Positions 13,411 through 23,635 of a DNA stretch of 64,000 bases are shown in pieces; within the stretch, counting starts at the first letter, position 1; each line of letters opens with the position of its first letter. The position numbers and the translations under genes were made by a program. A model generated the notes under the pieces. The model was not told where the DNA came from. It searched no databases and saw nothing but the letters and a program-made list of their open reading frames with translations. The DNA is taken from the NCBI GenBank assembly GCA_016840165.1, contig JAEOSU010000076.1, positions 1-64,000 of the forward strand. Direction: 5' to 3'. The DNA comes from Promethearchaeota archaeon (GTDB taxonomy: Archaea > Asgardarchaeota > Lokiarchaeia > Sigyniarchaeales > SOKP01).

Positions 13411-14653
13411 TTAAAAGGAATATACAAATATCTGATTAGGAATTTTTAAATCCTCTTCCTTATTTTTGCATGCAATAAATTTAATTTTCATATCCAAAGC
13501 GAGGGAGATTAATCTATTGGTTAATATTCCATGAATAATGAGATATTGGATATCCTTAAATTCAGACAGATTATCATATAATTCTCCAACGGGAAGATTT
13601 AATAGTATTTCGGAATTTTTATTAAATCCTATACAGTGTCCTGGCTCTATTTCTTTAAGACTTTTAACTATAGGTTCTTGATTTTTTATTTTTAGTTTTT
13701 TTAAAGATTTTTCTAAGAATGTATCCACTTTTTTATCAGGCTTCTTTTCTTCTTCTATATAGGATTCTTCACTATAACTTTCTGCAGGCTTCTTATTCTG
13801 TAATGCCTTTATCAACTGCTTTCTTGTCAACTCTTCTACTTCATAACCTTCAGGAGCTCTAGCGATGAAATCAAGTTTAGTTAATTGCTTTAATTCATTT
13901 AAAATAATAGTTCCACCCCTATCACCATCAAGAAATGCGATTACTGTGGATTTTTTTTCTGCTAAATCAATAACAGATTTAGGAACTTGTGTTCCTTGTA
14001 CAGCGATAGAGTTTTTAATTCCAATTCGTAATAGATTTAACACATCAGCCCTTCCTTCTACGATAATTAGTTCAGGATTAGAATCAACCTCTGGACCAGC
14101 AGGTAACCCATCAGAACCCCATGAGATAATTTCTCCTAATTTAATATCTGTTTCTATTCTTTCTTCGATTTCACTGGGTTCTAACGATTTTTGATCCCAT
14201 TCTTTTAATAATTCAGCGGCTCTCTCTATTATCTTCTTACGTTTTGTTTCTCTAACGTCTTTAATCCCAAGCAGTTTGATTTCTGCCTCACAGGGACCGA
14301 CCCTAGTAACAGTTTCGACTGTTGCAGCAAGAAGAGCTGTTTCTTTTCGTGTTAGGCTACTTGGTATACTAATGAATCCCTCAGAAATTCCTTCTTTGGA
14401 TTCATTCTCAACCTCTATTCTTCCTATACGCCCCGATTTTTGTAAATCTCTTAAATCGAGATCTAATAGAAGACCTTCAGTTTAGCCGATTATGCCGATT
14501 AGGCCTTTAAGTATTTTATAATCTCTGGCCAAAAATAGCCCCAACGATATCGCTCTTCTCAACCACACCCTTAATTTTAAATTTAGTTTCAATTATATAT
14601 TTAGTTGTAAAATCAGTTTGATTATTTGTAATCTTGATCACTTCCAAATTCAT
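13411..14653 (-). CDS. dnaG: Archaeal DnaG (exosome-associated Toprim protein), two exons: 14653-14525 and 14481-13411, about 399 aa after splicing
   Basis: Exon 1 reads ...TTKYIIETKFKIKGVVEKSDIVGAIFGQ. Exon 2 reads TEGLLLDLDLRDLQKSGRIGRIEV...VEGRADV...FLDGDRGG and is open to 13411. The ORF track shows only 13411-14043. Exact start is uncertain (ATG 14653, GTG 14641 or ATT 14632). Confidence 0.93.
14482..14524 (-). other. 43-nt BHB-type mRNA intron in dnaG
   Basis: Minus strand reads GGCC-AG^A-GATTAT...ATAATC-GGCT-AA^A-CTG: a 4-bp central helix GGCC/GGCT, two 3-nt purine bulges and a 6-bp intron stem. Splicing gives TTT GGC CAG ACT GAA GGT (FGQTEG). Confidence 0.9.
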
Positions 14654-15206
14654 ATTTTTCTAATAATTTAATAAATTTAACAAGAATGATATTATAATTT
14701 GATTTAAGTTGATTAGATCTTTTTATGGTAAATTCGAATTAAATGAATCATCTTTTTATGTTTATATGTTAAAATCATCTTTTAGAGATGATTGAGTATA
14801 TGAAATATTTCATTCCATTTATTTTTTAGTAATCTCTAAAAATCGCGAAAATAAAGATAAAAATATATATTATCCCCATGAGATTTCTTTTTTTAAATCC
14901 CGCATTGATATAATCGATGATGAGTCTTTATTGGAATAATAAATTACTGAAAAAAATTTTTAATAATCAGAATAAAACAAAAATTAAATACCGGATAATA
15001 ACAGATCTCGGAAGATTTTACTTTTATTTTGAAAAAGACCCTTCCATTAAGAACGGAAACTTTTCTGGTAAATTATTGTTCTTTCCAAAAAAAAGCACTA
15101 ATTTTGATGATTAAATTGTAATTTAATTATTTCTATTTGTAAAGATATTTTATTATTGGATAATTTGTTTATTTTACTAGAATATTTTATTTTTAACTGT
15201 ACAATT

Positions 15207-22557: not shown

Positions 22558-23635
22558 TGAGAATGATTCATTAATCGTGAAGATTAAACAAAATAGAAAG
22601 AAATTTATTCAAAATAGAACCAAATCGTCAAGCATAGTACTCGATAAACCCGTCAGTTTTTGGATCAAAGAGGACCGATTATTAAATAAGAAAGGTAAAG
22701 AATTTACAATAATATTACGAACCAGAGGTTGCAGTTGGGCTTTAGGAGATTCGGGGGGGTGTTCGATGTGTGGATATATAGGAGATTCGAACATTGATCC
22801 AGTCGATCCTGAGCAAATTCTCCATCAGTTTGAATATGCTATGAAAGCTAAAGAACATGAAATTATTTCATCCAAGGATGATTTTGTGCTTAAAATTTTT
22901 AACTCAGGCAGTTTTTTCGATGATGAGGAGATTCCAGAGAATATTAGAGCCAAAATATATGATAAGATTAAAAATTACGATAAAATTAAGGAAGTTGTTA
23001 TCGAATCTCGTGCTGAATATTTAACAGAATCTAAATTAGATGCTATACAGAATGCTTTGCAAGATAAATATGTGGAAGTAGCAATTGGTCTTGAAAGTGT
23101 TGATGATCATATTCGAAATAATTATATTAATAAAGGATTACTATACGATGATTTTTTAAAAGCAGTAGAGTTATGTAAAGAATTTAATTTAGGGATAAGA
23201 GTTTATTTACTTTTTAAACCACCATTTCTCAACGAACAAGCAGCTATTGATGACTGTATCAATTCGGTAAATACTTTAATCAATCTACACGTGAACACTA
23301 TCTCAATTAATCCAGTAAATATCCAAAAAGGATCATATGTAGAATATCTTTGGTACCAAAACCGATATCGACCACCCTGGTTTTATTCTCTTATCAAAGC
23401 TTTAAAAAAAATACTTTTAAGTAGAAGAGATGAAATTTCTACTCGTATTATTTCTGATCCGTCTGGAGCAGGCACAAAGCGAGGGATTCATAACTGCCTC
23501 AAGAGAGAATGTAATGAAAATATGCTATCCTTATTAAGAAACTTTGTTATCACTCAAAATGTTGAAGATTTATTAAAAGACGTTCCTAAATGTGATTGTA
23601 AATTAGAATATAAATTAAAAAAATTGTATATGTGA
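22544..23635 (+). CDS. raSEA: Archaeosine biosynthesis radical SAM enzyme RaSEA
   Basis: LRTRGCSW...GGCSMCGY, FNSGSFFD, KPPFL, YRPPW and RGIHNC; overlaps arcS. Confidence 0.92.
   Translation: MRSSNENDSLIVKIKQNRKKFIQNRTKSSSIVLDKPVSFWIKEDRLLNKKGKEFTIILRTRGCSWALGDSGGCSMCGYIGDSNIDPVDPEQILHQFEYAMKAKEHEIISSKDDFVLKIFNSGSFFDDEEIPENIRAKIYDKIKNYDKIKEVVIESRAEYLTESKLDAIQNALQDKYVEVAIGLESVDDHIRNNYINKGLLYDDFLKAVELCKEFNLGIRVYLLFKPPFLNEQAAIDDCINSVNTLINLHVNTISINPVNIQKGSYVEYLWYQNRYRPPWFYSLIKALKKILLSRRDEISTRIISDPSGAGTKRGIHNCLKRECNENMLSLLRNFVITQNVEDLLKDVPKCDCKLEYKLKKLYM

What the first reader, a model, noticed from the sequence alone, without database searches (positions are those of the whole stretch)
14482..14524. 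BHB intron inside a protein-coding gene (dnaG): tRNA-type mRNA splicing in an Asgard archaeon
Seen: the conserved archaeal DnaG motif GAIFGQ|TEGLL is interrupted by 43 nt that add in-frame stops and shift the frame. The junctions fold as GGCC-AGA-GATTAT...ATAATC-GGCT-AAA, a 4-bp helix with two 3-nt bulges and a perfect 6-bp intron stem. The exon-side helix is weak, so the motif is relaxed. Cutting after the second nucleotide of each bulge, the EndA rule, restores CAG ACT exactly and gives a ~399-aa protein with both exons intact. Established: archaeal splicing endonuclease plus RtcB ligase act on BHB motifs, and mRNA introns are best known from crenarchaeal cbf5. Inference: dnaG expression depends on splicing, which ties the exosome-associated DnaG to EndA activity. 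Such genes would be mis-annotated as truncated or pseudogenes.
Basis: partly seen in the sequence, partly recalled or inferred. Interest (0 to 1): 0.95.

Follow-up and report, generated by a model that had tools for sequence, protein, structure and literature searches.

The report
Spliced tRNA-type mini-intron in Asgard dnaG
The only dnaG gene of this Loki-type (Asgard) archaeon is broken by a 43-base insert shaped like a tRNA intron. Environmental RNA contigs from two studies carry the exact exon-exon joint, so this is a rare case of archaeal mRNA splicing seen in RNA data.

Summary
On the minus strand, dnaG is split into exon 1 (14653-14525, 43 codons, ends GAIFGQ) and exon 2 (14481-13411, 356 codons, starts TEGLL). 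A 43-nt insert (14524-14482) carries stops and shifts the frame. The two pieces match positions 1-26 and 27-279 of the archaeal DnaG model, so the join is exact.

The insert folds as a relaxed bulge-helix-bulge motif: GGCC/GGCU central helix, AGA and AAA bulges, and a 6-bp intron stem. There is no supported exon-exon outer helix.

About 40 other genomes and metagenome contigs carry a 29-43-nt insert at the same site. The central helix and intron stem pair in every one, with compensatory changes. Sister species lack the insert precisely. Exon 1 stays under purifying selection (pN/pS 0.06-0.11).

The genome encodes a two-subunit EndA with the broad-specificity loop, and RtcB.

Metatranscriptome contigs from two studies (95-98% identical) carry the exact spliced junction. 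A third stops at the exon boundary. No intronless DNA allele of this clade was found.

This is a new member of a known kind, the crenarchaeal cbf5 mRNA intron, in a new gene and phylum. This scan has already noted similar mRNA introns in this and other Asgard genomes. The proposed exosome link is untested.

The parts
14525..14653 (-). dnaG exon 1. It has 43 codons, from ATG at 14653 to CAG at 14527-14525, and ends GAIFGQ.
   Evidence: It matches NF003108 positions 1-26. pN/pS is 0.06-0.11 among intron-bearing lineages.
14482..14524 (-). 43-nt BHB-type intron. It contains in-frame stops and shifts the frame by 1.
   Evidence: RNA contigs skip exactly these 43 nt.
13411..14481 (-). dnaG exon 2. 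It has 356 codons plus a stop, starts TEGLL, and carries the Toprim domain.
   Evidence: Pfam Toprim_4, Toprim and Toprim_2 match. NF003108 gives 366.7 bits at positions 27-279.
14527..14530 (-). 5' strand of the central helix H. It is exonic GGCC: the Gly codon plus the first base of the Gln codon.
   Evidence: It pairs with 14484-14487. The helix is 100% paired in 13 distinct introns, with one compensatory change and four U.G changes. It pairs in 30 of 30 further genomes.
14524..14526 (-). 5' bulge A-G|A. The 5' splice site lies between 14525 and 14524.
   Evidence: Sequence. The joint is seen in RNA contigs.
14518..14523 (-). 5' strand of the intron helix h' (GAUUAU).
   Evidence: It pairs with 14488-14493. 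The first 3 bp are 100% paired across relatives, with one compensatory change and one G.U change.
14494..14504 (-). Apical hairpin GCC-UAAUC-GGC inside the intron.
   Evidence: It appears in the minimum-energy fold. It is 100% paired in the relatives that have it aligned and recurs in the introns.
14488..14493 (-). 3' strand of the intron helix h' (AUAAUC).
14484..14487 (-). 3' strand of the central helix H (intronic GGCU).
14481..14483 (-). 3' bulge or loop A-A|A. The 3' splice site lies between 14482 and 14481. It is not closed by a supported outer helix.

Best explanation
The 43 nt at 14524-14482 (minus strand) are an archaeal bulge-helix-bulge intron inside the coding sequence of the genome's only dnaG gene.

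Proposed mechanism:
1. In the pre-mRNA, the exonic GGCC (Gly codon plus the C of the Gln codon) pairs with the intronic GGCU to form the 4-bp central helix.
2. An intron stem (GAUUAU/AUAAUC, capped by a small GCC/GGC hairpin) closes the 5' bulge.
3. The 3' splice site sits in a 3-nt bulge or loop that is closed on one side only. This is a relaxed motif of the HBh' type.
4. The host's two-subunit (alpha-beta)2 splicing endonuclease, which carries the broad-specificity loop, cuts after the second nucleotide of each bulge.
5. RtcB joins the exons, giving ...UUUGGCCAG|ACUGAAGG... and a 399-aa DnaG.

Shown here: the anatomy, the exact colinear junction, conservation with compensatory changes, selection on exon 1, presence of the enzymes, and RNA-library contigs with the exact joint.

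Inferred: that EndA and RtcB are the enzymes acting, that the excised intron is circularised, and that DnaG production depends fully on splicing.
For: 1. The junction is exact. Exon 1 matches profile positions 1-26 and exon 2 matches positions 27-279 of NF003108. Intronless congeners read ...GAIFGQTEGLL... without a break.

2. The BHB geometry is in the right register. Chance for this junction is 6e-4 to 1e-3, or 2.5e-5 to 7.5e-5 with the 6-bp stem.

3. Same-site inserts of 29-43 nt occur widely: in 10 of 24 sampled congeneric genomes and one genome of another family, in 5 independent assemblies of close relatives, and in 30 species-level genomes.

4. Across 13 distinct introns, the central helix and the first 3 bp of the intron stem are 100% paired. 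One compensatory change occurs in each (GGCC/GGCU to GGGC/GCCU; GAU/AUC to GAC/GUC), along with U.G and G.U changes. Slid controls pair in only 12-46% of cells.

5. Exon 1 stays open in every intron-bearing locus. Its pN/pS is 0.06-0.11, against 0.116 for exon 2.

6. The intron is more conserved than synonymous sites: 81-84% identity against 60-70% third-position identity.

7. The enzymes are present. The EndA alpha subunit has Tyr, His and Lys, and a K-P-R that aligns to K44/R46 of the A. pernix specificity loop. Its best solved match is 3P1Z_B. The beta subunit lacks the His. PMC3241643 gives the role of K44. PMC5829648 reports that Asgard archaea have (alpha-beta)2 EndA with this loop. RtcB is present.

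8. In metatranscriptome X20, two contigs (about 95% and 89% identical) skip exactly 43 nt, with 67-87 nt on the shorter side. In metatranscriptome X18, from another study, a 97.7%-identical contig runs to 14481 and continues with 14 letters identical to 14525-14538. These include the CAG codon, where most relatives have CAA. As a weak hint, a 99%-identical contig in a third study (X19) stops aligning exactly at 14481.

9. No intronless DNA allele of this clade was found. All database proteins at 86% identity or more are truncated calls of 344-347 aa, and every intact DnaG is at most 76% identical. JGI metagenome contigs hold 0 intronless junctions of this clade against 4 intron-bearing ones.

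10. This is the only dnaG locus in a 99.7%-complete genome.
Against: - The RNA evidence consists of assembled contigs from metatranscriptome libraries, not raw reads. Such libraries can contain DNA. The contigs are 89-98% identical to the window rather than identical, so an unsampled intronless strain cannot be strictly excluded.
- The 3' splice site is not in a closed bulge. The candidate outer helix is no better than slid controls, and in the minimum-energy fold the AAA pairs with UUU.
- The fold energy is no better than shuffles (z = 0.01).
- Unconstrained RNAalifold prefers an alternative GGCC:GGUC exon-exon helix. That helix shows no covariation and is broken in two sequences.
- Genome-wide, BHB-like motifs that join open frames are as common as decoys, so the structure carries weight only together with the other evidence.
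- No enzyme assay exists for any Asgard EndA on an mRNA substrate.
Confidence: 0.9

Rival explanations
1. The gene is split or truncated, and no splicing occurs. The insert is a fixed insertion. Exon 2 is translated alone from an internal start, as gene callers predict (344-347 aa). Exon 1 is either a separate 45-aa peptide or a relic. The junction-bearing RNA contigs come from unsampled intronless strains, or from their DNA carried into the RNA libraries.
For: - Gene callers produce 344-347-aa products for all close relatives.
- The metatranscriptome contigs are 89-98% identical rather than 100%.
- Intronless alleles do exist in other species of the genus. One 88%-identical allele is seen in DNA run X5.
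Against: - Exon 1 is under the same purifying selection as exon 2 and is never broken in about 40 intron-bearing loci.
- The insert boundaries are conserved to the nucleotide while its length varies from 29 to 43 nt.
- The BHB pairs are kept by compensatory changes. A dead insertion has no reason to keep them.
- No intronless DNA allele above 76% protein identity was found in 5.8 billion proteins or in JGI contigs.
- The X18 contig carries the CAG codon typical of the 43-nt clade.
Confidence: 0.05
2. The break is read through during translation. Ribosomes bypass or frameshift across the 43 nt, as in T4 gene 60 hopping, so the mRNA keeps the insert.
For: The insert is short and contains a stem-loop, and a stop follows soon after the break.
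Against: - RNA contigs lack the 43 nt. Bypassing leaves the RNA unchanged.
- There are no matched take-off and landing codons (CAG against UAA/ACU).
- Insert length varies from 29 to 43 nt among relatives while the BHB register is kept.
Confidence: 0.02
3. It is a decaying pseudogene or an assembly artefact.
For: The frame is interrupted, and MAG assemblies can contain errors.
Against: - The same insert is found in independent assemblies from at least five JGI and NCBI samples, and in 30 species genomes.
- This is the only dnaG copy in a 99.7%-complete genome.
- pN/pS is about 0.1 in both exons.
- The Toprim motifs are intact.
Confidence: 0.01

Closest known systems
cbf5 (pseudouridine synthase) pre-mRNA intron of Crenarchaeota (Watanabe 2002; Yoshinari 2006; Yokobori 2009, PMC2738675)
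   Same: - A short BHB intron inside a coding sequence.
- The motif is often relaxed.
- The cut falls between the second and third bulge residues.
- The host has a hetero-oligomeric EndA with broad specificity.
- Presence is patchy among relatives, with precise intronless alleles.
- The gene is mis-annotated as truncated or frameshifted.
   Different: - A different gene: dnaG, at the GAIFGQ|TEGLL motif.
- A different phylum: Asgard (Promethearchaeota).
- The organisms are mesophilic and uncultured.
- The evidence here is comparative plus metatranscriptome contigs, not cDNA or in vitro cleavage.
BHB intron in the 5' UTR of Haloferax volcanii HVO_1309 (PMC7714728)
   Same: An mRNA substrate of the archaeal splicing endonuclease. 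Its size is similar (46 nt), and it is removed as a unit.
   Different: That intron lies in a UTR and does not interrupt the reading frame. The Haloferax enzyme is a homodimer with strict BHB preference. That case was shown by circRNA-seq and in vitro assay, which are lacking here.
Non-canonical tRNA introns of archaea with (alpha-beta)2 EndA, including the heavily interrupted tRNA genes of Asgard archaea (PMC5829648; bioRxiv 10.64898/2026.10.13.758758)
   Same: The same motif (hBHBh' and its relaxed forms), the same size range, the same presumed enzymes, and the same pattern of repeated gain and loss.
   Different: The host RNA here is an mRNA. [quoted passage not shown] The preprint reports no mRNA introns.
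HAC1/XBP1 unconventional mRNA splicing (IRE1 endonuclease plus tRNA ligase or RtcB) in eukaryotes
   Same: Non-spliceosomal, protein-catalysed removal of a short intron from an mRNA. It changes the reading frame and uses RtcB-type ligation in metazoa (from my own knowledge, and the abstract of PMC8718801).
   Different: The endonuclease is IRE1, not EndA/TSEN. The recognition elements are twin stem-loops, not a BHB. That splicing is regulated by stress. No regulation is shown here.

Membership tests
Archaeal BHB (EndA/RtcB-spliced) intron | A 4-bp central helix flanked by two 3-nt bulges on opposite strands | tested here: met
   GGCC/GGCU with the AG|A and AA|A bulges. The helix is 100% paired in 13 distinct introns and in 30 of 30 further genomes, with one compensatory change.
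Archaeal BHB (EndA/RtcB-spliced) intron | Outer helix h' (intron side) of at least 2 bp | tested here: met
   The stem is 6 bp in the window and 3-6 bp in relatives. The first 3 bp are 100% paired, with one compensatory change and one G.U change.
Archaeal BHB (EndA/RtcB-spliced) intron | Outer helix h (exon-exon side) closing the 3' bulge, as required by the strict hBHBh' form | tested here: not met
   The best candidate (U.G, U-A, U-A/G after two mismatches) pairs no better than controls slid by +1 or +2. The motif is therefore the relaxed HBh'-like form, which is known for cbf5 and for non-canonical tRNA introns.
Archaeal BHB (EndA/RtcB-spliced) intron | Cutting after the second nucleotide of each bulge yields a functional, colinear product | tested here: met
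   Exon 1 matches profile positions 1-26 and exon 2 matches 27-279. The result is identical to the intronless alleles.
Archaeal BHB (EndA/RtcB-spliced) intron | The host encodes a splicing endonuclease able to cut relaxed motifs, and an RtcB ligase | tested here: met
   The alpha subunit (Tyr/His/Lys, with K-P-R in the specificity loop) and the His-less beta subunit are present. RtcB is present.
Archaeal BHB (EndA/RtcB-spliced) intron | The spliced RNA exists | tested here: met
   Two contigs of RNA run X20 skip exactly 43 nt. One contig of RNA run X18 crosses the junction with a 14-nt overhang. These are contig-level data from metatranscriptomes, not raw reads of an isolate.
Archaeal BHB (EndA/RtcB-spliced) intron | Cleavage by EndA leaves 2',3'-cyclic phosphate and 5'-OH ends, and the excised intron is circularised | not testable with these tools
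   This needs an in vitro assay, circRNA-seq or 5'-OH-seq.
Group I or group II self-splicing intron, or another curated RNA family | A match to a ribozyme or other Rfam model | tested here: not met
   Rfam 15 gives no match at E <= 1 in 14350-14700. At 43 nt the insert is far too short for a ribozyme.
Translational bypass (T4 gene 60 type) | The mRNA retains the gap, and take-off and landing codons match | tested here: not met
   RNA contigs lack the 43 nt. There are no matched codons.

The most novel reading that the evidence does not exclude
The dnaG intron may not be an isolated oddity. It could be one of a genome-wide set of old, selectively maintained EndA/RtcB-spliced mRNA introns in Lokiarchaeia-type Asgard archaea.

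Support for this: same-site dnaG introns occur in at least 30 species, with a conserved internal hairpin. RNase HII and EF-2 of this same genome also carry short stop-bearing inserts.

If so, expression of core replication, RNA-decay and translation genes would depend on the tRNA-splicing machinery, and could be tuned by it. That would be a protein-enzyme form of mRNA splicing in the closest prokaryotic relatives of eukaryotes.
Probability: 0.4. Interest if true: 0.85.

Novelty: new member of a known kind. Interest (0 to 1): 0.7.

Why it matters
In the papers I could search, splicing of an archaeal coding sequence by the tRNA-splicing enzymes is documented for a single gene, crenarchaeal cbf5. 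One further case is a 5'-UTR intron in Haloferax.

This finding matters for four reasons:
- It adds a second, unrelated core gene, in Asgard archaea, supported by comparative covariation and by RNA-derived contigs with the exact joint.
- It shows that standard annotation truncates such genes. All close relatives are called at 344-347 aa instead of about 399.
- It provides a concrete substrate for testing Asgard EndA and RtcB on mRNA.
- It bears on how introns could live in protein genes before, or beside, the spliceosome in the lineage nearest to eukaryotes.

Tried and rejected
1. Genome-wide scan for BHB motifs (4-bp central helix, 3-bp intron stem, 16-150 nt) that merge two open frames. It gave 23087 hits against 22999-23276 in wrong-register decoys, with no enrichment at any helix-strength cut-off. 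This method cannot find further mRNA introns and shows the motif alone is not evidence. My check for the dnaG hit in that list printed nothing, because I used the wrong contig length (64000 instead of 162663). I did not repeat it.

2. nhmmer with the intron alignment, and simple patterns, against the whole genome. Only the dnaG intron itself was found (E = 3.8e-10; the next hit had E = 6). There is no detectable paralogous intron family, so I found no sequence support for recent transposition between tRNA and mRNA.

3. Minimum-energy folding gave z = 0.01 against shuffles. Unconstrained RNAalifold returned an alternative exon-exon helix without covariation, which I rejected.

4. An exon-exon outer helix is not supported.

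5. Rfam gave no family in the region.

6. Reads:
   - RNA runs X18 and X19 have no contig over the intron itself. Missing cover is not evidence.
   - DNA run X5 gave only fragments here. One came from an intronless species at 88% identity, so it could not serve as the same-strain DNA control.
   - Raw reads were not available for any run.

7. ARAGORN on the window and Rfam on bases 1-600 found no tRNA.

8. The DnaG tree leaves the backbone of the genus unresolved. The number of gains and losses (minimum 3 changes) and the homology of the insert in the other family remain open.

9. Literature searches found no paper reporting mRNA BHB introns in Asgard archaea. The held library lacks most subscription journals.

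Full report
**1. What is in the sequence**

The feature lies on the minus strand. An ATG at 14653 opens 43 codons that end GAIFGQ, with CAG at 14527-14525. From 14481 a second frame opens with TEGLL and runs for 356 codons to the stop at 13413-13411.

The 43 nt between them (14524-14482) shift the frame. Read-through ends after GQRL.

Exon 2 carries Toprim domains and scores 366.7 bits on the archaeal DnaG equivalog NF003108, whose cut-off is 300. Exon 1 residues 18-43 cover profile positions 1-26, and exon 2 starts at position 27. Removing exactly these 43 nt therefore restores the protein with no residue missing or added, giving 399 aa.

This is the only dnaG locus in a genome scored 99.7% complete.

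**2. The fold**

- Exonic GGCC (14530-14527) pairs with intronic GGCU (14487-14484).
- The 5' bulge is AG|A.
- The 6-bp stem is GAUUAU/AUAAUC.
- A small GCC-N5-GGC hairpin sits at the tip.
- The 3' bulge is AA|A.

Cutting after the second nucleotide of each bulge gives CAG|ACU. PMC2738675 states this same rule for cbf5.

The minimum-energy fold contains the central helix, the 5' bulge and the stem. It pairs the 3' AAA with upstream UUU, however, and its energy is no better than shuffles. A candidate exon-exon outer helix is indistinguishable from slid controls. The motif is therefore the relaxed, HBh'-like form.

**3. Is it more than chance?**

The structure alone is not. A genome-wide scan for BHB-like motifs that fuse two open frames found as many hits in wrong-register decoys as in the true register.

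For this particular junction the answer is different, because homology fixes the boundaries. Only 0.06-0.1% of shuffled or random genomic 43-mers form the central helix plus at least 3 bp of stem in a splice-equivalent register. Only 0.0025-0.0075% form a 6-bp stem.

**4. Comparative evidence**

Of 24 sampled genomes of the same genus, 11 read ...FGQTEGLL... without a break. Ten carry an insert of 34-39 nt at exactly this site. One genome of another family carries a 29-nt insert there.

The closest database relatives (86-96% protein identity) are all annotated as 344-347-aa truncated proteins. Every intact DnaG is at most 76% identical. Their DNA comes from four JGI samples and one NCBI MAG, and it holds a 43-nt insert like the window's.

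A pattern scan of species-level genomes found 30 more with a same-site intron of 34-43 nt. Most are labelled Promethearchaeota.

Across 13 distinct introns, the central helix and the first three stem pairs are paired in every sequence:
- The Gly third position varies C, U or G, while its intron partner reads G, G or C.
- GAU/AUC becomes GAC/GUC in the other family.
- Slid controls pair in only 12-46% of cells.

Exon 1 is open in every intron-bearing locus. Its pN/pS is 0.06-0.11, the same as exon 2 at 0.116.

The intron is itself more conserved than synonymous sites, mainly at its two ends.

On a DnaG tree the intron state is clustered and needs at least three changes. The backbone is unresolved, so I cannot say whether the pattern reflects one gain with losses or repeated gains.

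**5. The machinery**

The genome has two EndA homologues.

The 201-aa protein on contig C14 keeps the catalytic Tyr, His and Lys. It aligns best to the catalytic subunit of the Aeropyrum pernix heterotetramer (3P1Z_B, E = 3e-38). Its K-P-R aligns to K44/R46 of the Crenarchaea-specific loop. PMC3241643 shows that this loop confers broad substrate specificity.

The 205-aa protein on contig C4 lacks the His, as a structural beta subunit would.

PMC5829648 had already inferred an (alpha-beta)2 EndA with this loop in Asgard archaea. RtcB is present.

**6. RNA evidence**

Twenty public runs hold parts of the locus, and three are metatranscriptomes from three different studies. I laid their contigs on 13411-14760.
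- **X20 (wetland):** two contigs skip exactly 43 nt at 14481/2-14523/4, with 67 and 87 nt on the shorter side. They are about 95% and 89% identical to the window.
- **X18 (rhizosphere):** a 97.7%-identical contig runs to 14481 and continues with 14 letters that equal 14525-14538. This is the predicted joint. It includes the CAG codon seen in the window and in most of the 43-nt clade, where most other relatives have CAA.
- **X19 (sediment):** a 99%-identical contig stops aligning exactly at 14481. This is only a weak hint.

These are assembled contigs from libraries that may contain DNA, and they are not identical to the window. An intronless strain is the formal alternative.

Against that alternative, no intronless allele above 76% protein identity exists in the 5.8-billion-protein collection. 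JGI metagenome contigs hold 0 intronless junctions of this clade against 4 intron-bearing ones.

**7. Rivals**

- **Split or truncated gene without splicing.** This does not explain selection on exon 1, nucleotide-exact boundaries despite length variation, or compensatory changes.
- **Translational bypass.** This is contradicted by RNA contigs that lack the insert and by the absence of matched codons.
- **Pseudogene or assembly artefact.** This is excluded by the many independent assemblies and by pN/pS.
- **Ribozyme or other curated RNA family.** Rfam finds none.

**8. Context and novelty**

The searchable literature documents coding-sequence BHB splicing only for crenarchaeal cbf5, plus a 5'-UTR intron in Haloferax. 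A 2026 preprint on Asgard tRNA introns reports no mRNA introns. I found no paper on Asgard mRNA introns.

Earlier notes of this scan report similar mini-introns in other genes of this genome and in other Asgard genomes. I checked two of them. The RNase HII match holds two TAA codons in a 30-nt insert inside GIDEAGR|GPV. The aEF-2 match holds one TAA in a short insert.

The dnaG intron has no detectable paralogue in the genome.

The genome does encode two adjacent RNase PH-domain proteins.

**Verdict**

This is a genuine BHB-type mRNA intron with a probability of about 0.9. It is a new member of a known kind, in a new gene and phylum, with RNA-level support.

Noticed in passing
L039:1528-1557 (G000 contig C100, RNase HII): The only RNase HII match of the genome has a 30-nt insert with two TAA codons. 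It sits between GIDEAGR and GPVIGP, inside the catalytic motif. It looks like another mRNA mini-intron. I did not work out its BHB register.
   Followed up: partly
L040 near 1642 (G000 contig C1, aEF-2): The aEF-2 match has one TAA inside a short extra stretch (...DSDLE*ELLLLLKDEEQERGITI...).
   Followed up: partly
window 14484-14501 (minus strand): The 3' part of the intron is a near-tandem repeat (UAAUCGGC twice; UCGGCU-NAA twice in the 37-40-nt versions). One copy forms the tip hairpin with an internal GCC. The other pairs with the exonic GGCC. This suggests origin by a small duplication, or an alternative unproductive 3' site.
   Followed up: no
window 14917-15114 (+): A 65-aa ORF between dnaG and the ArsA/Get3-like ATPase gene is also called as a 65-aa gene, with no Pfam hit, at the same place in three relatives. 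It may be a conserved small protein.
   Followed up: no
window 1-64000; 122-242: ARAGORN finds no tRNA in the whole 64-kb window, and Rfam finds none in bases 1-600. A first-reader note places a tRNA-Gly with two non-canonical introns at 122-242. If that note is right, standard tools miss the gene.
   Followed up: partly
window 14465-14468 with 14527-14530 (minus strand): The exon-2 GGUC (Gly codon plus the C of Leu) can pair with the exonic GGCC that forms the central helix. RNAalifold prefers this alternative. It could compete with BHB formation, but it shows no covariation.
   Followed up: partly
L046, L054, L058, L067, L069 (genome contigs): Genomes carrying the same dnaG intron type are labelled variously as Hodarchaeota, Hermodarchaeota and Odinarchaeota, as well as Promethearchaeota. 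Several of these submitter labels probably do not match the actual lineage.
   Followed up: no
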